Part shown: positions 4,058-56,846 of the stretch, in pieces
Layout of the letters: each line of letters opens with the position of its first letter
Position numbering within the stretch: the first letter of the stretch is position 1
NCBI RefSeq assembly: GCF_055900595.2
Contig: NZ_CM148325.1
Reading direction: 5' to 3' (one strand)
DNA: 64,000 nucleotides
Position numbers and translations under genes: made by a program
The notes under the pieces: model-generated
The model's input: only the letters and a program-made list of their open reading frames with translations
The model's database searches: none
Told to the model about the DNA's origin: nothing

Positions 4058-4113
4058 AAACGGCGGCAGAGCAGTCACGGAGTAAAACTGATACCGCTAA
4101 ACGTCACCAGAAA
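4058..4113 (-). ncRNA. dicF: DicF small RNA (ftsZ-targeting sRNA of Qin-type prophages)
   Basis: Minus-strand sequence ttttctggtgacgtttagcggtatcagttttactccgtgactgctctgccgccg followed by a T-run; near-identical to DicF as I recall it. Confidence 0.8.
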
Positions 4114-9669: not shown

Positions 9670-9823
9670 TTTTATATTGGCGAGGTGACGTGAGTTAAGT
9701 AGAATTGCTGCGGGTGCTTGAGGCTATCTGCCTCAGGCATGAACACCAACGGCAGATAGAGAAAAGCCCCAGTTAACATTACGCGTCCTGCAAGACGCTT
9801 AACATTAATCTGAGGCCAATTTC

Positions 9824-10036
9824 ATGCTAGACACATGTAGGTTAGCCTCTTACGTGCCGGAAGGCAAGGAGAAGCAGGCTATGAAGCAGCAAAAGGCGAT
9901 GTTAATCGCCCTGATCGTCATCTGTTTAACCGTCATAGTGACGGCACTGGTAACGAGGAAAGACCTCTGCGAGGTACGAATCCGAACCGGCCAGACGGAG
10001 GTCGCTGTCTTCACAGCTTACGAACCTGAGGAGTAA
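9824..10036 (+). CDS. mok: mok-like reading frame overlapping hok
   Basis: 70-aa frame that starts upstream of and reads through hok, as in hok/sok loci. Confidence 0.5.
   Translation: MLDTCRLASYVPEGKEKQAMKQQKAMLIALIVICLTVIVTALVTRKDLCEVRIRTGQTEVAVFTAYEPEE
9881..10036 (+). CDS. hok: Hok/Gef-family type I toxin
   Basis: 51 aa MKQQKAMLIALIVICLTVIVTALVTRKDLCEVRIRTGQTEVAVFTAYEPEE, Hok family (HokD/RelF-like as I recall it). Confidence 0.85.
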   Translation: MKQQKAMLIALIVICLTVIVTALVTRKDLCEVRIRTGQTEVAVFTAYEPEE

Positions 10037-19053: not shown

Positions 19054-19416
19054 ATTAATATTAAATCGGATTATTTTTAGCGCTGAATGTGAAATTTAAA
19101 TAAAAAGGACTCTTCCATGAGTCAAAATCCTTGAAATCTTAAGGGTAAGATAAAAGGTCATTAGACAGAATGACACGTTTTATTAATAAATAAAGCTATT
19201 GTTTCATTCGTGTGTTTTTCTTTACAAAAGTAATCCTTGCTATGGTTGGTTAATCATGCGTTAATGGTGTTCTGGTTTGTTACAAAATTATCTGAAGCAG
19301 TCATTGTTATAATTTTATTATTTGTACCTCTTGAGATTTCCTTGTTGGTTTTTCTCTCTGATATTTTTTTTCGGACCATTCTGCCCAAGGGCTAACTTCT
19401 TCAAAAGGTAATAATG

Positions 19417-19629
19417 ATGTCTAACAAAATGACTGGTTTAGTGAAATGGTTTAACCCTGAAAAAGGTTTTGGTTTCATCACGCCGAAAGATGGTAGCAAA
19501 GATGTGTTTGTCCATTTCTCAGCTATTCAGAGCAACGATTTCAAAACGTTAACTGAGAATCAGGAAGTCGAATTTGGTATTGAGAACGGACCTAAAGGCC
19601 CCGCGGCTGTTCATGTTGTGGCACTTTGA
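19417..19629 (+). CDS. cspI: Cold shock protein (CspI-like)
   Basis: [38 protein letters not shown]... cold-shock domain. Confidence 0.9.
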
Positions 19630-19828
19630 GGTAGATAATATTACAAACCATATTCACTTTAGATGCCCGTGTTGCCATGGTTCTCAGTATAGAACATCAT
19701 CTTTTGATGTTTCTGACAGGAATCCTTTCGGGGCAAAATGTATCTTTTGTAAATCAATGATGATTACATTTGATAATATTTCACAATACTTAAATGTTAG
19801 CCGTCTATCGTTAGATTTAAGAAAGTGA
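19613..19828 (+). CDS. Possible small Cys4 zinc-ribbon protein
   Basis: [10 protein letters not shown]...CIFCKS motif; weak RBS; start overlaps the csp stop. Confidence 0.3.
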
Positions 19829-27950: not shown

Positions 27951-28274
27951 ATGGCAAAGAATTTTGTAGAAGAAGGAAAAACGGTGGCGATTGTTGCCAG
28001 TGCAGCCATCAGCAGCGGAGAGCTGGTGCAGGTGGGTGATGTTTTTGCGGTGGCGCTGACCGATATTCCACAGGGTGAAACAGGCGACGGCATGACCGAA
28101 GGTGTGTTTATGCTGCCTAAGCTGAAAACGGATGACATGAAAACGGGTAAGAAGGTTTATCTGAAGTCCGGAAAAGTTCAGCTGACTAACAGCGGCTCTG
28201 ATCCGCTGGTCGGGGTTGTCTGGGCAGATGCCGGAACCAGTGCAGAAGAAGTGCCGGTAAAACTCAATGTCTGA
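27951..28274 (+). CDS. Head protein (lambda Fi position)
   Basis: 107 aa with GGAG RBS between the capsid and FII-like genes. Confidence 0.5.
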   Translation: MAKNFVEEGKTVAIVASAAISSGELVQVGDVFAVALTDIPQGETGDGMTEGVFMLPKLKTDDMKTGKKVYLKSGKVQLTNSGSDPLVGVVWADAGTSAEEVPVKLNV

Positions 28275-28542
28275 TCCCTTTTCCCGGCTGGCAGCGCGTA
28301 TGGATGCGATCACGGTCAGAAAGATGGGAAAGACAGCCTCGATTAATGATGTCGATATGACTGTGATCCCGGGAGAAACACTGGCAGAGCTGAATGCTCT
28401 GTCCGGACCTGCGGTCTCTCTGGTGGTGTTTTCTTCGGGATACCGCCCACGGCGCGGGGATCGCGTTGTTTATGACGGACAACAATGGACGGTCACACGG
28501 CATGAACGCTTTAACGGTAAGCCAATGATCTTTATTGAGTAA
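28267..28542 (+). CDS. Head-tail joining protein (FII-like)
   Basis: RRGDRVVYDGQQWTVTRHERF resembles the lambda FII C-terminus. Confidence 0.65.
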   Translation: MSDPFSRLAARMDAITVRKMGKTASINDVDMTVIPGETLAELNALSGPAVSLVVFSSGYRPRRGDRVVYDGQQWTVTRHERFNGKPMIFIE

Positions 28543-29552: not shown

Positions 29553-30296
29553 ATGACCACACCAAATCCACTGGCAAAGACGAAAGGTGCGGGGACGACG
29601 TTCTGGATGTATACCGGCAACGGCGATGCGTTTGCGAACCCTTTGTCGGACACTGACTGGCTGCGTCTTGCGATGGTGAAGGATCTGCAACCTGGCGAAA
29701 TGACCGCTGATGCAGAAGATGACACTTATCTCGATGATGAAGATGCAGACTGGAAAACGACAACCCAGGGGCAGAAATCCGTTGGTGATACTTCGGCGAC
29801 GCTGGCCTGGCGTCCGGGTGACAGCGGGCAGAAAAAACTGGTTCAGTTGTTCGACTCCGGTGAAGTCTGCGCGTTTCGTATCAAATATCCCAACGGCACT
29901 GTTGATGTTTTCCGTGGCTGGCTGAGCTCACTGGGTAAAACCATTGCCTCAAAAGACGTGATGACCCGCACTGTGAAAATCAGCGGTGTGGGGCGTCCGT
30001 ATCTGGCAGAGGAAGGCACTGAAACCGTGAGCGTTACCGGGCTGACAGTATCACCGGCGTCTGCCAGTGTAAAAGTGGGAGCAACCACCACGCTGACCTT
30101 TACAGTAAAACCTGACGGAGCCAGTGACAAAGCGATCAGTGTGCATTCGTCAGATCCACAGACTGCCACGGTTACCCTGAACGGACTTGTGGCCACGGTA
30201 AAAGGCGTGAAGCAGGGCAGTGTCAGCATTGTGGGCATGACCGCTGACGGGAATTTTGTGGCTGTGACTGCGGTGACTGTCAGCGCAGCAGGTTAA
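29553..30296 (+). CDS. Major tail protein (gpV-like) with C-terminal Ig-like domain
   Basis: MTTPNPLAKTKGAGTTFWMYTG...LDDEDADWKTT matches lambda V. Confidence 0.9.
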   Translation: MTTPNPLAKTKGAGTTFWMYTGNGDAFANPLSDTDWLRLAMVKDLQPGEMTADAEDDTYLDDEDADWKTTTQGQKSVGDTSATLAWRPGDSGQKKLVQLFDSGEVCAFRIKYPNGTVDVFRGWLSSLGKTIASKDVMTRTVKISGVGRPYLAEEGTETVSVTGLTVSPASASVKVGATTTLTFTVKPDGASDKAISVHSSDPQTATVTLNGLVATVKGVKQGSVSIVGMTADGNFVAVTAVTVSAAG

Positions 30297-30316: not shown

Positions 30317-30340
30317 GCCCCGGTTATGCGGGGCTTTTTT
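30317..30340 (+). terminator. Intrinsic terminator-like hairpin between V and G
   Basis: gccccggttatgcggggc followed by tttttt. Confidence 0.55.
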
Positions 30341-30356
30341 GCAGGTGGAGAACATG

Positions 30357-30743
30357 ATGTTTCTGAAACAGGACACGTTTAATTATGAAAAACAGTCCGT
30401 GGTGCTCAGTGAGCTGTCCGGGCTGCAGAGAATTGAATATCTGACGTTTGTTCAGCAGCGAACGGCAAAGTTTGATGCCGTGGAGGGAGAACTGCCGGAG
30501 GCTGAACGACAGATTGCTTTTCTGCGGATGGGGATGGATATCAATGCCTGGCTGGTTTCCCGCTCACTGTGGAATGCGGATCAGTCTAAGGATGTAGAGA
30601 CGCTTTGCGCATCCGTTATTACAACATGGTCGTATGATGCCCTGGGTGCGGGGGCGGAGATGGTTCTGTCGCTGAGCGGTATGGGGGCCATTGATAATGC
30701 CGTGGATGATGAGCATGAGGCGCTGACGCCGGAAAAGTCCTGA
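30357..30743 (+). CDS. Tail assembly chaperone G
   Basis: MFLKQDTFNYEKQSVVLSELSGLQRIEYL matches lambda G. Confidence 0.85.
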   Translation: MFLKQDTFNYEKQSVVLSELSGLQRIEYLTFVQQRTAKFDAVEGELPEAERQIAFLRMGMDINAWLVSRSLWNADQSKDVETLCASVITTWSYDALGAGAEMVLSLSGMGAIDNAVDDEHEALTPEKS

Positions 30744-31081
30744 CGCGGGAAATGCAGTTTGTCATGCGGCTTGCCCGGGAGTTCCGGCGGGCAGACTGGC
30801 GGCGGATGCTGTCGGAAATGTCGGCCACTGAGCTTGGTGAGTGGGGCGATTATTTCCGGATGCAGAGCTTCAGTGATGTGTGGATGGATGCGCAGTTTGC
30901 CTCGCTGAAGGCATTGATCGTGAGAATGGTGTCCGGCAGCAGTGATGCTGCGGTGGCTGATTTCAGCCTTTTACCGGAAGAGAACGGGATACCGGAGCGA
31001 ACGGACGAAGAACTGATGCATCTTGGGGAAGGTATTTCCGGAGGTGTGCGTTATGGACCAGATAGCCAACCTGGTCATTGA
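30677..31081 (+). CDS. Tail assembly protein T segment (expected as G-T fusion via -1 frameshift)
   Basis: -1 frame is open from 30677 across the G stop into the T-like ORF. Confidence 0.7.
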
Positions 31082-34000
31082 TTTGGGGATTGATGCGGCA
31101 GAGTTTAAAAATGAAATTCCCCGTATCAAAAACCTTCTGAATGGTGCAGCCAGCGATGCAGAACGGTCTTCTGCCCGTATGCAGCGTTTTATGGAGCGTC
31201 AGACTCAGGCCGCCCGGCAGACAACGCAGGCAGCTTCTTCGGCTGCAACAGCCGCATCCGTCCATGCGCAGACGGTGGAGAAGAACGCACAGGCTCATGA
31301 ACGCATGGCCCGCGAGGTGGAGAAAACCCGCCAGCGCATGGAGGCACTGAGCCAGAAAATGCGCGAGGAACAGGCGCAGGCCATCGCTCTGGCGGAGGCT
31401 CAGGATAAAGCGGCTGCTGCGTTTTATCGTCAGATTGACAGTGTGAAACAGGCCAGTGCGGGGCTGCAGGAATTACAGCGTATTCAGCAGCAGATCCGAC
31501 AGGCCAGAAACAGTGGCGGGATTGGTCAGCAGGATTATCTGGCGCTGATTTCTGAGGTTACGGCGAAAACCCGTGTTCTTACGCAGGCTGAGGCAGAGGC
31601 TACCCGACAGAAAGTGGCGTTTATCCGTCAGCTTAAAGAGCAGGCAACCCGCCAGAATCTTTCTTCTTCTGAGTTGCTTCGTGCCAGGGCTGCCCAGCTG
31701 GGGGTAAGCAGTGCTGCAGAAGTGTATATCCGCAAAATGGAGCGGGCAGGAAAAGCCACGCATTCGCTGGGTCTGAAAAGTGCAGCGGCCCGCCAGGAGA
31801 TAGGCGTTCTGATAGGTGAACTGGCCCGCGGCAATTTAGGGGCGCTGAGGGGATCCGGGATAACGCTGGCTAACCGTGCCGGATGGATAGACACACTGAT
31901 GTCACCGAAAGGCATGATGCTGGGCGGGGTTATTGGCGGTATTACCGCGGCCGTCTATGGTCTGGGTAAAGCCTGGTATGACGGTCAGAAGGAGGGGGAA
32001 GAATTTAACCGCCAGCTGTCGCTGACGGGGCATTATGCCGGAGTCACTGCCGGGCAGCTGTGGACGCTCAGTCGTGCTATTTCCGGGAATGGTATCACGC
32101 AACATGCTGCAGCCGGTGCGCTGGCTCAGGTGGTGGGGAGTGGTGCATTTCGTGGAAACGATATCGGTATGGTGGCGAGAGCTGCCGCACAGATGGAGCG
32201 ATCGGTTGGCCAGTCGGTCAGCGATACCATAAATCAGTTTAAGCGGCTGAAGGATGATCCTGTAAATGCCGCGAAGTCTCTGGACAATGAGCTGCATTTT
32301 CTTACTGCCACTCAGCTTGAGCAGATACGCGTCCTTGGAGAGCAGGGGCGGTCCAGTGATGCGGCACGGATAGCCATGTCTGCACTGGCAGAGGAAACCG
32401 GTCGGCGTACTGCGGATATTGATAATAACCTCAATGCGCTGGGCAGTACGCTGCAAACTTTGTCTGACTGGTGGAAGCAGTTCTGGGATGCGGCCATGAA
32501 TATTGGTCGTGAAGATTCGCTGGATGCGCAGATTGCCACTTTGCAGGAGAAAGTGTCGCGGGCGAAAAGACTCCCCTGGACGGCATCATCTTCTCAGGTT
32601 GAATACGATCAGCAGCGTCTTAACGATCTTCAGGAGAAAAAACGCCAGAAGGATTTGCAGGATGCAAAAGAGCAGGCAGAGCGGAATTATCAGGAGCAAC
32701 AGAAACGCCGTAATGCTGAAAATGCTGCACTGAACCGGATGAATGAAACGGAAGCTGCACGACATCAGCGTGAAATTGCGCGTATTAATGCCATGCAGTA
32801 CGCCGATCAGGCTGTCAGGGATGCGGCGATACAACGTGAAAATGAACGTTACGAGAAAGCCCTGGCATCCGGTAAGAAAAAAACACGCGAAACCCGTAAT
32901 GATGAGGCCACCCGGTTATTGCTGCAGTACAGTCAGCAACAGGCACAGGTGGAAGGACAGATTGCTGCTGCCAGACAGTCAGCAGGCATTGCCACGGAAA
33001 GGATGACAGAAGCGCATAAACAGCTCCTGGCTCTGCAGCAGCGCATCAGCGACCTGGACGGGAAAAAACTGACGGCAGATGAAAAGAGTGTGCTGGCCCG
33101 TAAAGATGAACTGATTCAGGCACTGACGCTGCTGGATGTAAAACAGCAGGAGCTTCAGAAACAGACGGCACTCAACGAGCTGAAGAAAAAACAATTCAGC
33201 TGACCAGTCAACTGGCTGAAGAAGAGCGCGCTCAGCGTCAGCAACATGACCTGGATATCGCCACGGTGGGTATGGGTGATCAGCAGCGACAGCGATATCA
33301 GGTACAACTGAGTCTTCGCCAGAAATACCAGCAACAGCTGGAGCAGTTGAGGCGGGATAGTGAGCAGAAAGGGACATATAACACGGATGACTACAGAAAG
33401 GCCGAGCAGGCGCTGACGGAGAGCCTGAACCGACAACTGAATGAGAATCGCCGTTACTGGCAACAGCTTGAAGTTGTGCAGGGTAACTGGAAAAACGGAG
33501 TCCTGCGTGCATTTCAGGATTTTACCGTGGATGCAGATAATACGGCAGAAACAGCAGAACAGGTGTTCTCGTCAGCCTTCAGCAACATGGGAAATGGCCT
33601 GGCAACTTTTGTCACTACCGGCAAACTCAATTTCAAATCCTTCACCTCTTCTGTGCTGTCAGATATGGCGAAAATCCTGGCGCAGGCAACCATGATGAAA
33701 TCGATAAAAGGGATTGGCAGTGTACTGGGATTTGATCTCAGCAGCCTTTCCCTGAATGCCAATGGGGGGATTTATCAGTCTGCTGATTTGAGTCGTTACA
33801 GTGGCACGGTGGTTAACCGTCCGACGTTTTTTGCTTTTGCAAAAGGCGCGGGTGTGATGGGGGAAGCGGGACCTGAAGCCATTCTGCCATTGCGTCGTGG
33901 TGCTGACGGTAAGCTGGGGGTTGTGGCGGATATTGGGGGTTCAGGTATGGCGATGTTTTCCCCGCAGTACAACATCGAGATCAATAACGATGGCACGAAC

Positions 34001-34117
34001 GGGCAGATAGGTCCGGCTGCCCTGAAGGCGGTTTATGACCTCGGGAAAAAAGCGGCAGCGGACTTTATGCAACAGCAGGCCCGTGATGGTGGTCGGTTAA
34101 GTGGAGCATATCGGTAA
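31053..34117 (+). CDS. Tail tape measure protein (gpH-like), interrupted by an apparent frameshift near 33186-33203
   Basis: Two consecutive ORFs (frame 0 to 33203, -1 frame open from 33110) both with tape-measure character; GGAGGTG RBS before ATG 31053. Confidence 0.8.
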
Positions 34118-34455: not shown

Positions 34456-35154
34456 ATGCAGGATATTCCACAGGAAACACATCATGAGACGACACGCCTC
34501 ACTCAGTCAGCCCAGGTGGTGCTCTGGGAAATCGATCTGACAGAGGTCGGTGGTGAACGTTATTTTTTCTGTAATGAGCAGAACGAAAAAGGTGAGCCGG
34601 TTACCTGGCAGGGGCGGCAGTATCAGGCATACCCCATTCAGGGGACGGGATTTGAACTGAACGGCAAGGGCAGTGCTGCCCGTCCGACACTGACGGTTTC
34701 TAACCTGCACGGAATGGTCACCGGGATGGCGGAAGACCTGCAGAGTCTGGTCGGCGGAACGGTGGTCAGGCGTAAGGTTTACGCCCGTTTTCTGGATGCG
34801 GTGAACTTCGTCAACGGAAACAGTGACGCCGATCCGGAGCAGGAGGTGATCAGCCGCTGGCGCATCGAGCAGTGCAGCGAACTGAGCGCGGTCAGTGCCT
34901 CTTTTGTACTGTCCACGCCGACGGAAACGGACGGTGCTGTTTTTCCGGGACGTATTATGCTGGCCAACACCTGCACCTGGACCTATCGCGGCGATGAGTG
35001 CGGTTATAGCGGTCCGGCGGTCGCGGATGAATATGATCAGCCGACGTCCGATATCACGAAGGATAAATGCAGCAAATGCCTGAGCGGCTGTAAGTTCCGC
35101 AATAACGTCGGCAACTTTGGCGGTTTTCTTTCCATTCACAAACTTTCGCAGTAA
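34456..35154 (+). CDS. Minor tail protein L
   Basis: Lambda L-like, conserved Cys cluster at the C-terminus. Confidence 0.9.
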   Translation: MQDIPQETHHETTRLTQSAQVVLWEIDLTEVGGERYFFCNEQNEKGEPVTWQGRQYQAYPIQGTGFELNGKGSAARPTLTVSNLHGMVTGMAEDLQSLVGGTVVRRKVYARFLDAVNFVNGNSDADPEQEVISRWRIEQCSELSAVSASFVLSTPTETDGAVFPGRIMLANTCTWTYRGDECGYSGPAVADEYDQPTSDITKDKCSKCLSGCKFRNNVGNFGGFLSIHKLSQ

Positions 35155-40623: not shown

Positions 40624-41330
40624 TGCACAGAAAACCCCCAGCTAGGCTGGGGGTTCCGGAAAGCTTTCAGCTTTGAGCCAGTTATTAAAACCCCTTTTGA
40701 TTTGTTAAAACACCTTGCGGTCTGGCAACTGCAAGTGTCAAACAAGAAATCAAAAGGGGGTCCCAATGGGGGACGAAAAGAGCTTAGCGCACACCCGCTG
40801 GAACTGTAAATATCACATAGTTTTTGCGCCGAAATACCGAAGACTGGCGTTTTACGGAGAGAAGCGTAGGGCGATAGGCAGTATTTTGAGAAAGCTGTGT
40901 GAGTGGAAAAGCGTACGGATTCTGGAAGCAGAGTGCTGCGCAGATCATATCCATATGCTTGTGGAAATCCCACCCAAAATGAGCGTATCCGGCTTTATGG
41001 GATATCTGAAAGGGAAAAGCAGTCTGATGCTTTACGAGCAGTTTGGGGATTTGAAATTCAAATACAGAAACAGGGAGTTCTGGTGCCGAGGGTACTATGT
41101 CGATACGGTGGGTAAGAACACGGCGAAGATACAGGACTACATAAAGCACCAGCTTGAAGAGGATAAAATGGGGGAGCAGTTATCGATTCCATATCCGGGC
41201 AGCCCGTTTACGGGCCGTAAGTAACGAAGTTGAATGCAAATGTCAGATCGTATGCGCCTGTTAGGGCGCGGCTGGTAACAGAGCCTTACAGGCGCATTTG
41301 AAAAACCTCCGGCTATGCCGGAGGATATTT
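40621..41330 (+). mobile_element. IS200-family insertion sequence (about 710 bp, boundaries approximate)
   Basis: Left-end hairpin cccccagctaggctggggg, second stem-loop over the RBS, tnpA, right-end hairpin cctccggctatgccggagg. Confidence 0.8.
40766..41224 (+). CDS. tnpA: IS200 transposase TnpA (HUH Y1 transposase)
   Basis: MGDEKSLAHTRWNCKYHIVFAPKYRR...HIHMLVEIPPKMSVS matches IS200 TnpA. Confidence 0.9.
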   Translation: MGDEKSLAHTRWNCKYHIVFAPKYRRLAFYGEKRRAIGSILRKLCEWKSVRILEAECCADHIHMLVEIPPKMSVSGFMGYLKGKSSLMLYEQFGDLKFKYRNREFWCRGYYVDTVGKNTAKIQDYIKHQLEEDKMGEQLSIPYPGSPFTGRK

Positions 41331-56532: not shown

Positions 56533-56577
56533 GCTCCGTTTAACATTCATTGAGAAAACTGATGCTACTGTGTCAAC

Positions 56578-56677
56578 GATCCGTTATCAGTGCAGGAAAA
56601 TGCCTGTTAGCGTAAAAGCAAAACACAAATCTATCCATGCAAGCATTCACCGCCGGTTTACTGGCGGTTTTTTTTCG
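56578..56677 (+). ncRNA. mgrR: Candidate MgrR small RNA (boundaries approximate)
   Basis: Intergenic position between dgcZ and mgtS; ends at intrinsic terminator ccgccggtttactggcggtttttttt. Confidence 0.45.
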
Positions 56678-56750
56678 CCGTCATAAAAATCAGGCCCCTT
56701 GTACACAGTTGTAACAAGGGGCCGGTTAGGTGAGGGATTATCTCCGTTCA

Positions 56751-56846
56751 TTAGTCATCCCATTTGTGGCTGAAATACGCGGCCAGAAAACCAGAAAATA
56801 AAATTATTCCCAGTACGGCCATAAAAACATTCATATTACCCAGCAT
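56751..56846 (-). CDS. mgtS: Small membrane protein MgtS (YneM), 31 aa
   Basis: Minus-strand MLGNMNVFMAVLGIILFSGFLAAYFSHKWDD; not in the ORF track because of size. Confidence 0.8.
   Translation of the reverse strand: MLGNMNVFMAVLGIILFSGFLAAYFSHKWDD

What the first reader, a model, noticed from the sequence alone, without database searches (positions are those of the whole stretch)
30677..30751. G-T programmed -1 frameshift window
The -1 frame is open from 30677 through the G stop (30741-30743) into the T-like ORF, as in lambda. The heptamer GGAAAAG at 30731-30737 resembles lambda GGGAAAG but is not a perfect XXXYYYZ site, so the exact slip position is unresolved.
Basis: partly seen in the sequence, partly recalled or inferred. 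Interest (0 to 1): 0.35.

Follow-up and report, generated by a model that had tools for sequence, protein, structure and literature searches.

The report
Phage tail chaperone G-T frameshift site
This is the programmed -1 ribosomal frameshift site that joins the tail-assembly chaperone genes G and T of a lambda-like E. coli prophage, a well-known device whose slippery sequence here differs by one base from lambda's and whose fusion product is not annotated in the records I checked.

Summary
The finding is real and ordinary in kind, with one factual error. G (30357-30743, Pfam Phage_TAC_2) and a -1-frame T segment (to 31081, Pfam Phage_tail_T) lie between the tail-tube and tape-measure genes of a Qin-site lambdoid prophage (mEp460/cdtI type).

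The heptamer GGAAAAG is at 30731-30737 and reads G_GAA_AAG in the G frame. The -1 frame is not open from 30677. It has five stops between 30692 and 30718 and opens only at 30719, so the overlap is 25 nt. That overlap holds a single shift-prone motif, which settles the slip position by computation.

The slip-site Lys aligns exactly with the mapped slip-site Lys of lambda GT, so lambda's G_GGA_AAG differs by one base. CCGGAAAAG followed by one codon and a stop is invariant in every relative found, down to 54% G identity, including Gifsy-1, Gifsy-2 and Fels-1. The annotated T start ATG (30752) is not conserved and has no Shine-Dalgarno match.

I found no stimulatory RNA structure and no conserved upstream Shine-Dalgarno element. 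Published work treats G_GAA_AAG as weakly slippery, so efficiency is the open question.

The site occurs in 1845 of 5426 complete E. coli genomes. None of the six records of this phage type that I inspected joins G and T. Verdict: new member of a known kind, low-to-moderate interest.

The parts
29553..30296 (+). V-like major tail tube gene, immediately upstream of G
   Evidence: PF16461 Phage_TTP_12 E=6.5e-67 plus Big_2. The start is mapped from the PGAP CDS of E. coli THO-008 with a +155 offset. The anti-SD match is -14.5 kcal/mol.
30317..30340 (+). Terminator-like hairpin GCCCCGGTTATGCGGGGC followed by T6, between V and G
   Evidence: Found by the consensus scan. The equivalent site in phage mEp460 is annotated as a rho-independent terminator.
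30357..30743 (+). Gene G, the tail assembly chaperone in the zero frame. An alternative ATG lies at 30354. The stop is TGA 30741-30743.
   Evidence: PF06894 Phage_TAC_2 E=5.9e-40. PGAP calls it 'gpG: phage tail assembly chaperone G'. Most relatives begin MFLK with a single Met.
30719..30743 (+). The true G/T overlap: 25 nt where the -1 frame is open while G is still being read
   Evidence: The last -1-frame stop is TGA 30716-30718 and the G stop is at 30741-30743.
30731..30737 (+). Slippery heptamer G_GAA_AAG (P-site codon GAA, A-site codon AAG). It contains the A_AAG tetramer at 30734-30737.
   Evidence: It is the only Z_ZZN motif in the overlap. It is invariant in all relatives. It occupies the same position as lambda's G_GGA_AAG.
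30737..31081 (+). T segment of the GT fusion, read in the -1 frame after base 30737 is re-read (VLTREMQFVMRLAREF...; 114 aa; stop TGA 31079-31081)
   Evidence: PF06223 Phage_tail_T E=2.1e-14 in the fusion. The -1-frame residues upstream of the annotated ATG are conserved as far as lambda; E133 is invariant.
30752..30754 (+). ATG used as the T start in database annotation; probably an internal Met codon
   Evidence: Six inspected records start T here or further downstream. The ATG is absent in Gifsy-1, Gifsy-2, Fels-1, L067, L114, L119 and L138. The best anti-SD match is only -3.3 kcal/mol.
31053..33203 (+). Tape measure gene H (5' part), starting inside the 3' end of T. In this window it is cut short by a 1-nt deletion in an A-run near 33186.
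   Evidence: PF06791 TMP_2 E=2.6e-49. The window has A6 where THO-008 has A7, which creates the stop at 33201-33203.

Best explanation
This is the recoding site of a lambda-type tail assembly chaperone pair.

Shown: most ribosomes would read G (30357-30743) to its TGA and make the chaperone G. A -1 shift on G_GAA_AAG (30731-30737) gives a 241-aa GT fusion with the junction ...ALTPEK|VLTREMQF.... In the shifted frame the ribosome reads GTC at 30737-30739 next, passes the G stop, and continues to 31081.

Inferred mechanism: with GAA in the P site and AAG in the A site, the single E. coli tRNA-Lys (anticodon mnm5s2U-U-U) re-pairs from AAG to the better-matched AAA. tRNA-Glu re-pairs from GAA to GGA, keeping positions 1 and 3 and forming a G-U pair at position 2. 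An alternative route, in which only tRNA-Lys slips on A_AAG, gives the same protein.

Inferred function, by homology with lambda: the G part binds the tape measure protein and the T part recruits the tail tube protein. A small fixed GT:G ratio would therefore be set by the slip frequency.

Not shown: the efficiency. With no detectable stimulator, and a P-site codon that published in vitro work treats as unfavourable, it is probably below lambda's ~4%.
For: - Identity and order: G matches PF06894 and the fusion matches PF06223, and the genes sit between a lambda-type tube gene and a tape measure gene.
- Frames: T is in the -1 frame, the overlap is 25 nt, and it holds one shift-prone motif.
- Positional homology: K128 is an invariant column that aligns with lambda GT K135, and the distance to the conserved LARE motif is the same. 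My lambda fusion equals UniProt P03735 'Tail assembly protein GT'.
- Conservation in close and mid-distance relatives: CCGGAAAAG plus one codon plus TGA is present in all 38 distinct sequence variants carrying the motif (IMG/VR loci, reference phages and the window). It is also present in Gifsy-1, Gifsy-2 and Fels-1 (G identity 54-57%), while the codons just upstream vary freely.
- Conservation in distant relatives: those with 35-41% G identity keep GCG_GAA_AAG or use G_GCA_AAA_TAG or G_GAA_AAA_TAG at the same place. The first G of the heptamer is invariant although it is a synonymous third position (CCG, GCG or CTG).
- The lambda clade always has G_GGA_AAG at this position.
- T cannot generally start on its own. 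The ATG at 30752 is missing in many lineages and has no SD match (-3.3 kcal/mol, against -13 to -14.5 for V and H). Yet the -1-frame residues between the heptamer and that ATG are conserved.
- Chance: 0.03 in-frame A_AAG motifs are expected in the overlap, and of the five shift-prone sites tested only this one opens a long -1 ORF.
- Literature: A_AAG is the most shift-prone tetramer in E. coli, and NNA_AAG sites are used naturally (PMC4066793; PMC5009743). Lambda G/GT biology and the roughly 30:1 ratio are in PMC5009743 and PMC3296357.
Against: - No protein-level evidence exists here.
- G_GAA_AAG is not a canonical X_XXY_YYZ. Peng et al. used exactly this sequence as their 'less slippery' control and saw mainly zero-frame product in vitro (PMC6924986).
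- A_AAG alone gave about 0.15% without a stimulator and 5.6% only with a strong pseudoknot (PMC4066793).
- I found no stimulator. The downstream fold has z = -0.82. The alignment fold has a positive covariation term and no compensatory pairs. No Rfam family matches.
- The upstream GAGG is an unremarkable anti-SD match: -5.6 kcal/mol, and 34% of equal-sized blocks in G-T do as well.
- Nucleotide invariance inside a dual-coding overlap is partly explained by protein constraints in the two frames.
- In this window the tape measure gene is frameshifted, so the tail module may no longer work in this host.
Confidence: 0.85

Rival explanations
1. There is no frameshift. T is made as a separate protein from ATG 30752 (or ATG 30764) by termination-reinitiation after the G stop, as current annotation implies.
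For: ATG 30752 lies 8 nt after the G stop. All six inspected records annotate T as a separate CDS, five from this ATG and one from further downstream. The ATG is kept in the window clade and in L037, L039, L040 and L054.
Against: The ATG is absent in Gifsy-1, Gifsy-2, Fels-1, L067, L114, L119, L120 and L138, which keep the heptamer. It has no SD match (-3.3 kcal/mol). The -1-frame residues upstream of it (VLTRE, with E133 invariant) are conserved as far as lambda. In lambda the T segment is known only as part of GT (PMC5009743).
Confidence: 0.06
2. The shift is real but is not tandem slippage. Only tRNA-Lys slips on A_AAG, either in the A site or as peptidyl-tRNA in the P site before UCC is decoded. 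The preceding G_GA is conserved for coding reasons. The protein product is identical.
For: Distant relatives use G_GCA_AAA and G_GAA_AAA, where P-site re-pairing is poor, so the constant element is A_AAR. Single-tRNA NNA_AAG sites are used naturally by IS1222 and occur in B. subtilis cdd (PMC5009743). Peng et al. regard GAA to GGA as a non-cognate second-position mismatch.
Against: The first base of the heptamer is G in every lineage even though it is a synonymous third position of Pro, Ala or Leu codons. This suggests that first-position re-pairing of the P-site tRNA matters.
Confidence: 0.3
3. The site is an intact relic. In this host the prophage tail module is decaying, so the G-T signal is no longer under selection here.
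For: The tape measure gene has a 1-nt deletion in an A-run and stops at 33203. There is a further 1-nt gap near 35153. The prophage sits at the Qin site, which is known for defective prophages. Singleton in-frame G-T deletion fusions exist in other genomes.
Against: G, the heptamer and T are 100% identical to copies in many genomes. They are 97-99.9% identical to phages deposited as complete genomes, several with a stated E. coli host (mEp460, cdtI, Ayreon, Tritos). The A-run difference could be a homopolymer sequencing error. This rival concerns current use, not what the element is.
Confidence: 0.25

Closest known systems
Bacteriophage lambda G/GT programmed -1 frameshift at G_GGA_AAG (Levin, Hendrix & Casjens 1993; Xu, Hendrix & Duda 2004, 2013, 2014; as reviewed in PMC5009743)
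   Same: The gene order is V-G-T-H and the Pfam families are the same. T is in the -1 frame. The slip-site Lys is in the same alignment column. The A-site shift is AAG to AAA by tRNA-Lys. The -1 frame reads Gly-Lys across the site.
   Different: The P-site codon is GAA (Glu) rather than GGA (Gly), a one-base difference that makes the heptamer non-canonical. The overlap is 25 nt rather than 64 nt. The G stop comes one codon after the heptamer rather than five. The GT proteins are only 34% identical.
Salmonella prophages Gifsy-1, Gifsy-2 and Fels-1 G/T
   Same: They have the identical CCGGAAAAG-NCC-TGA junction with T in the -1 frame. The Gifsy-1 and Gifsy-2 records already describe T as part of gpG 'by translational frameshifting'.
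   Different: Their G proteins are 54-57% identical to the window's G, and their T proteins 52-66%. They have no ATG at the position used as the T start in E. coli records. Their fusion is not deposited as a joined product either: the Gifsy-1 GT sequence is absent from the protein collection.
Hexanucleotide or tetranucleotide -1 shift sites NNA_AAG / A_AAG (IS1222 G_CGA_AAG, B. subtilis cdd A_CGA_AAG; Sharma et al. 2014; PMC5009743)
   Same: A-site tRNA-Lys slips from AAG to AAA, and the preceding codon cannot re-pair perfectly.
   Different: From my own knowledge, those sites rely on a downstream structure or an upstream Shine-Dalgarno stimulator, and none is detectable here. Their P-site codon is CGA rather than GAA.
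E. coli dnaX A_AAA_AAG
   Same: The A-site codon and tRNA are the same, and so is the direction of the shift.
   Different: dnaX has a perfect heptamer plus an upstream SD and a downstream hairpin, and shifts at about 50-80%. The shift there shortens the product rather than extending it (PMC6924986; PMC3711429; PMC6787027).

Membership tests
Lambda-type G/GT tail assembly chaperone with conserved -1 frameshift (Xu et al. 2004) | Two ORFs between the major tail (tube) gene and the tape measure gene | tested here: met
   V-like tube gene 29553-30296, G 30357-30743, T frame to 31081, tape measure gene from 31053.
Lambda-type G/GT tail assembly chaperone with conserved -1 frameshift (Xu et al. 2004) | Sequence homology to gpG and gpT | tested here: met
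   PF06894 E=5.9e-40 and PF06223 E=2.1e-14. The fusion is 34% identical to lambda GT over its full length.
Lambda-type G/GT tail assembly chaperone with conserved -1 frameshift (Xu et al. 2004) | The downstream ORF is in the -1 frame, overlaps the end of the upstream ORF, and has no conserved start of its own | tested here: met
   T is in the -1 frame with a 25-nt overlap. The -1 relation holds in all relatives except four with indels inside T. ATG 30752 is not conserved and lacks an SD match.
Lambda-type G/GT tail assembly chaperone with conserved -1 frameshift (Xu et al. 2004) | A conserved slippery sequence within the overlap, at the position of the lambda site | tested here: met
   G_GAA_AAG is invariant, and its Lys aligns with the lambda slip-site Lys.
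Lambda-type G/GT tail assembly chaperone with conserved -1 frameshift (Xu et al. 2004) | GT fusion protein produced at a low fixed ratio and required for tail assembly | not testable with these tools
   This needs protein detection or genetics. No exact GT sequence of this clade is in the protein collection.
Canonical X_XXY_YYZ tandem-slippage heptamer | Three identical bases XXX followed by YYY, so that both tRNAs re-pair at positions 1 and 2 | tested here: not met
   The heptamer is GGA AAA G, so XXX = GGA. No canonical heptamer exists anywhere in G.
Z_ZZN / NNA_AAG single-tRNA -1 shift sites | A_AAG in the zero frame, so that tRNA-Lys can move from AAG to AAA | tested here: met
   A_AAG lies at 30734-30737, with AAG as a zero-frame codon.
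Z_ZZN / NNA_AAG single-tRNA -1 shift sites | A stimulator (downstream hairpin or pseudoknot, or an upstream SD-like sequence) that raises efficiency | tested here: inconclusive
   The downstream fold has z = -0.82. The alignment fold has no covariation. The anti-SD match upstream is -5.6 kcal/mol and unremarkable in the window, but strong in one relative lineage (L054, AAGGAGGTG, -14.5).
dnaX-type frameshift cassette | A_AAA_AAG with an SD about 10 nt upstream and a stable hairpin 5-9 nt downstream | tested here: not met
   The heptamer is different, there is no significant SD or hairpin, and there is no Rfam match.

The most novel reading that the evidence does not exclude
G_GAA_AAG is a truly weak heptamer, yet it is fixed in a clade of tail modules present in a third of complete E. 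coli genomes. One possibility is that these phages assemble tails with a GT:G ratio well below lambda's 1:30. The other is that an unrecognised stimulator compensates. Candidates are the zero-frame stop fixed one codon downstream, the nascent ...TPEK peptide, or unusual second-position G-U tolerance of tRNA-Glu. tRNA-Glu, like tRNA-Lys, carries mnm5s2U34, so both slipping tRNAs would depend on the same thiolation pathway.
Probability: 0.3. Interest if true: 0.45.

Novelty: new member of a known kind. Interest (0 to 1): 0.25.

Why it matters
The main value is for annotation and as a natural test case.

- **Annotation.** The GT fusion of this tail module is not annotated in any of the six records I inspected. 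The exact protein is absent from a 15-billion-sequence collection, although the module occurs in 1845 of 5426 complete E. coli genomes and in sequenced phages. T is instead given a start codon that is not conserved.
- **Mechanism.** Alongside lambda, this clade forms a natural one-base pair (G_GGA_AAG against G_GAA_AAG) at a homologous position in homologous genes. That is a clean system for asking how much P-site re-pairing contributes to -1 frameshifting in vivo, and how much GT a siphophage tail really needs.

It does not change what is known about the G-T mechanism.

Tried and rejected
1. **Upstream Shine-Dalgarno-like stimulator, as in dnaX or cdd.** By eye, most lineages have GAGG, AGGA or GGAGG 9-14 nt upstream of the heptamer. 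Anti-SD duplex energies showed that this is unremarkable in the window: -5.6 kcal/mol, and 34% of equal-sized blocks in G-T do as well. The same holds in most lineages. It is strong only in the L054 lineage (-14.5) and moderate in the Ayreon-like lineage (-9.2). I rejected it as a conserved feature.
2. **Downstream stimulatory structure.**
   - The minimum-free-energy fold of 30738-30830 is no better than shuffled sequence (z = -0.82).
   - RNAalifold on 9 lineages gave -14.3 kcal/mol with a positive covariation term and no compensatory pairs.
   - The only recurrent helix, UCCUG/CGGGA, starts directly after the heptamer with no spacer and is broken in Gifsy-2.
3. **Rfam.** There is no family at the junction at gathering score. 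Only chance C/D-box matches appear at E up to 10.
4. **Other slip sites in G.** There is no canonical heptamer. The other in-frame tetramers, for example G_GCA_AAG at 30464, run into -1 stops within 1-2 codons.
5. **Solved structures.** No PDB sequence relative of GT was found.
6. **Literature on G_GAA_AAG in phage tail genes.** I found nothing in the held library or in the PRFect supplement. Xu et al. 2004 and Licznar et al. 2003 are not held, so I could not check whether they list this heptamer.
7. **Already-annotated GT fusions of this clade.** I found only four singleton proteins that carry both domains. All are in-frame deletion derivatives 212-233 aa long, not slippage products.

Full report
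**1. What is in the sequence**

The G ORF runs in the frame whose codon starts are divisible by 3. It has ATG codons at 30354 and 30357 and stops at TGA 30741-30743. Its last codons are GAG GCG CTG ACG CCG GAA AAG TCC TGA.

The next ORF is in the -1 frame and ends at TGA 31079-31081.

The -1 frame is not open from 30677. It has stops at 30692, 30695, 30707, 30710 and 30716, and opens only at 30719.

The real overlap is therefore 25 nt (30719-30743). This helps the interpretation rather than hurting it. The overlap contains exactly one shift-prone motif, the A_AAG tetramer inside G_GAA_AAG, and G contains no canonical X_XXY_YYZ anywhere.

**2. What the genes are**

- G matches Pfam PF06894, 'lambda tail assembly chaperone, protein G' (E=5.9e-40).
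- The conceptual fusion also matches PF06223, 'minor tail protein T' (E=2.1e-14).
- The gene upstream is a lambda-type tail tube protein (PF16461, E=6.5e-67).
- The gene downstream is a tape measure protein (PF06791, E=2.6e-49).

This is the lambda order V-G-T-H.

The window is a lambdoid prophage at the Qin (ydfJ) site. It is 99.8% identical to one in E. coli THO-008. Its G-T region is 97-99.9% identical to phages mEp460, cdtI, Ayreon, Tritos and others. The 801-bp region occurs in 1845 of 5426 complete E. coli genomes.

**3. Is the slip site homologous to lambda's?**

I built conceptual GT fusions by re-reading the last base of the heptamer. For lambda this reproduces UniProt P03735 'Tail assembly protein GT' exactly, which validates the procedure.

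In a nine-sequence alignment, the Lys encoded by the AAG of the heptamer (K128) is an invariant column. It coincides with lambda K135, the Lys of G_GGA_AAG. The spacing to the conserved LARE motif is the same in both. The two sites are thus positionally homologous and differ by one base: GGA (Gly) against GAA (Glu) in the zero frame, and GGG against GGA (both Gly) in the -1 frame.

**4. Conservation**

| Group | G identity to window | Junction in the G frame |
|---|---|---|
| IMG/VR relatives and reference phages | mostly 64-97% | CCG GAA AAG + one codon + TGA |
| Gifsy-1, Gifsy-2, Fels-1 | 54-57% | same |
| L138 | 39% | GCG GAA AAG TCC TGA |
| L139, L141, L142, L149 | 35% | GCG GAA AAG CGC TAA |
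| Seven loci (L130, L131, L133, L136, L137, L143, L147) | 34-41% | CTG GCA AAA TAG |
| L134 | 38% | CTG GAA AAA TAG |
| Lambda clade, 22 junction contexts | not compared | GCG GGA AAG + five codons + TGA |

- The motif was found in 38 distinct sequence variants, counting IMG/VR loci, reference phages and the window, and the codons just upstream diverge freely.
- T is in the -1 frame everywhere except in four loci that have indels inside T.
- The common core is G_GNA_AAR. The first G is invariant even though it is a synonymous third position of Pro, Ala or Leu codons. This points to selection at the nucleotide level.

**5. Can T be made on its own?**

Database records start T at ATG 30752 or further downstream. 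Three things argue against an independent start.

- The ATG is absent in Gifsy-1, Gifsy-2, Fels-1, L067, L114, L119, L120 and L138.
- Its best anti-SD match is -3.3 kcal/mol. The values are -14.5 for V, -13.3 for H and -7.0 for G.
- The -1-frame residues between the heptamer and the ATG (VLTRE) are conserved as far as lambda, and E133 is invariant.

**6. Chance**

In-frame A_AAG occurs at 16 of 3711 codons in the neighbouring late genes, so 0.03 are expected in the seven overlap codons. Of five in-frame shift-prone sites tested there, including a canonical G_GGA_AAG at 28326, only 30731 is followed by a long -1 reading frame: 114 aa against 1-8 aa.

**7. Mechanism**

The frames, the junction peptide (...ALTPEK|VLTREMQF...) and the homology are shown.

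The rest is inferred from established knowledge. tRNA-Lys (mnm5s2UUU) moves from AAG to AAA. tRNA-Glu moves from GAA to GGA with a second-position G-U pair. Alternatively, tRNA-Lys slips alone. The two routes give the same protein.

The relevant literature says the following.

- A_AAG is the most shift-prone tetramer in E. coli. It gave 5.6% only with a strong pseudoknot and about 0.15% without one (PMC4066793).
- NNA_AAG sites are used naturally (PMC5009743).
- G_GAA_AAG itself was used as the 'less slippery' control and gave mainly zero-frame product in a reconstituted system (PMC6924986).
- Lambda's site gives about 4%, a ratio of roughly 30:1, and that ratio matters for assembly.

**8. Stimulators**

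I found none. The downstream fold is not better than shuffles (z = -0.82). The alignment fold shows no covariation. No Rfam family matches.

An upstream GAGG looked promising by eye, but it is statistically unremarkable in the window. It is strong only in one relative lineage.

One pattern may be relevant. In the non-canonical clades the zero-frame stop is fixed zero or one codon after the slip site. In the canonical lambda clade it is five codons away. I could not test whether this matters.

Efficiency is therefore the open point. It is probably lower than in lambda.

**9. What is known and what is new**

The kind is textbook. Annotators of Gifsy-1 and Gifsy-2 already wrote that T is made 'by translational frameshifting'.

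For the E. coli lineage, none of the six records I inspected joins G and T. The exact GT sequences of the window and of Gifsy-1 are absent from a 15-billion-protein collection, while lambda GT is present. The only proteins with both domains are four singleton in-frame deletion derivatives.

I could not read Xu et al. 2004 or Licznar et al. 2003, so I cannot say whether this exact heptamer has been listed before.

**10. Caveat for this window**

The tape measure gene has A6 where THO-008 has A7. This creates a stop at 33201-33203. It could be prophage decay or a homopolymer sequencing error. It does not change what the G-T site is, but it may mean the site is not in use in this host.

**Verdict**

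The slip position is resolved by computation to G_GAA_AAG at 30731-30737. This is a new member of a known kind, with a one-base variant of lambda's heptamer. Interest is low to moderate.

Noticed in passing
window 31053-34117 (A-run at about 33186-33191): The tape measure gene H is split. The window has A6 where the 99.8%-identical THO-008 prophage has A7 (GAAGAAAAAAACAA), which gives a stop at 33201-33203. The rest of H continues in another frame to 34117. This could be a pseudogene, a homopolymer sequencing error, or something rescued at a low level by slippage on the A-run.
   Followed up: partly
window 30317-30340: A terminator-like hairpin (GCCCCGGTTATGCGGGGC followed by T6) lies between the tube gene V and G. 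The equivalent site in mEp460 is annotated as a rho-independent terminator. It could lower G/T/H transcription relative to V.
   Followed up: partly
window 1-50765 (whole prophage): The window is a near-complete lambdoid prophage at the Qin/ydfJ site. It carries DicF (4061-4112, minus strand), dicB, hokD/sok (9712-9886), cspI with a cspA-type thermoregulator (19259-19675), STnc490 (40633-40756) and STnc560 (56544-56757). No tRNA genes were found.
   Followed up: partly
window 40626-41327: A segment of about 700 bp is present in the window but absent from the otherwise 99%-identical THO-008 prophage, just after the lom-like gene. It overlaps the STnc490 match.
   Followed up: no
window 28326-28332: An in-frame canonical G_GGA_AAG, identical to lambda's slippery heptamer, lies inside the small head-tail gene 28267-28542. 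A -1 shift there would end after 4 codons, so it would only truncate the protein.
   Followed up: partly
window 30464-30470: A second in-frame shift-prone site, G_GCA_AAG, lies inside G itself. A -1 shift there meets a stop after one codon (TGA 30473).
   Followed up: partly
window near 35153 and 38086: Further 1-nt differences from THO-008: a deletion at the L/K gene junction (CGCAGT-AATTCC) and a compensated pair of indels in J.
   Followed up: no
L054, L056, L060, L066 (IMG/VR), 17 to 9 nt upstream of the heptamer: One relative lineage has a perfect Shine-Dalgarno sequence, AAGGAGGTG (-14.5 kcal/mol), ending 8 nt before the heptamer. It is the strongest anti-SD match in its whole G-T region and has dnaX-like spacing. 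The Ayreon-like lineage has GAGGTG (-9.2). These may be lineage-specific stimulators.
   Followed up: partly
L130-L137, L143, L147 (IMG/VR): Distant relatives place the zero-frame stop directly after the slip site (G_GCA_AAA_TAG or G_GAA_AAA_TAG). This would allow P-site slippage of tRNA-Lys in competition with termination. Across clades, weaker heptamers go with closer stops.
   Followed up: partly
L038 (IMGVR_UViG_2551306526_000001); L007, L030, L032, L033; proteins P0016, P0017, P0018, P0031: Damaged copies exist. One locus has lost G up to about 20 nt before the heptamer. Four loci have 1-nt indels inside T. Four singleton database proteins are in-frame genomic G-T deletion fusions of 212-233 aa.
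   Followed up: partly
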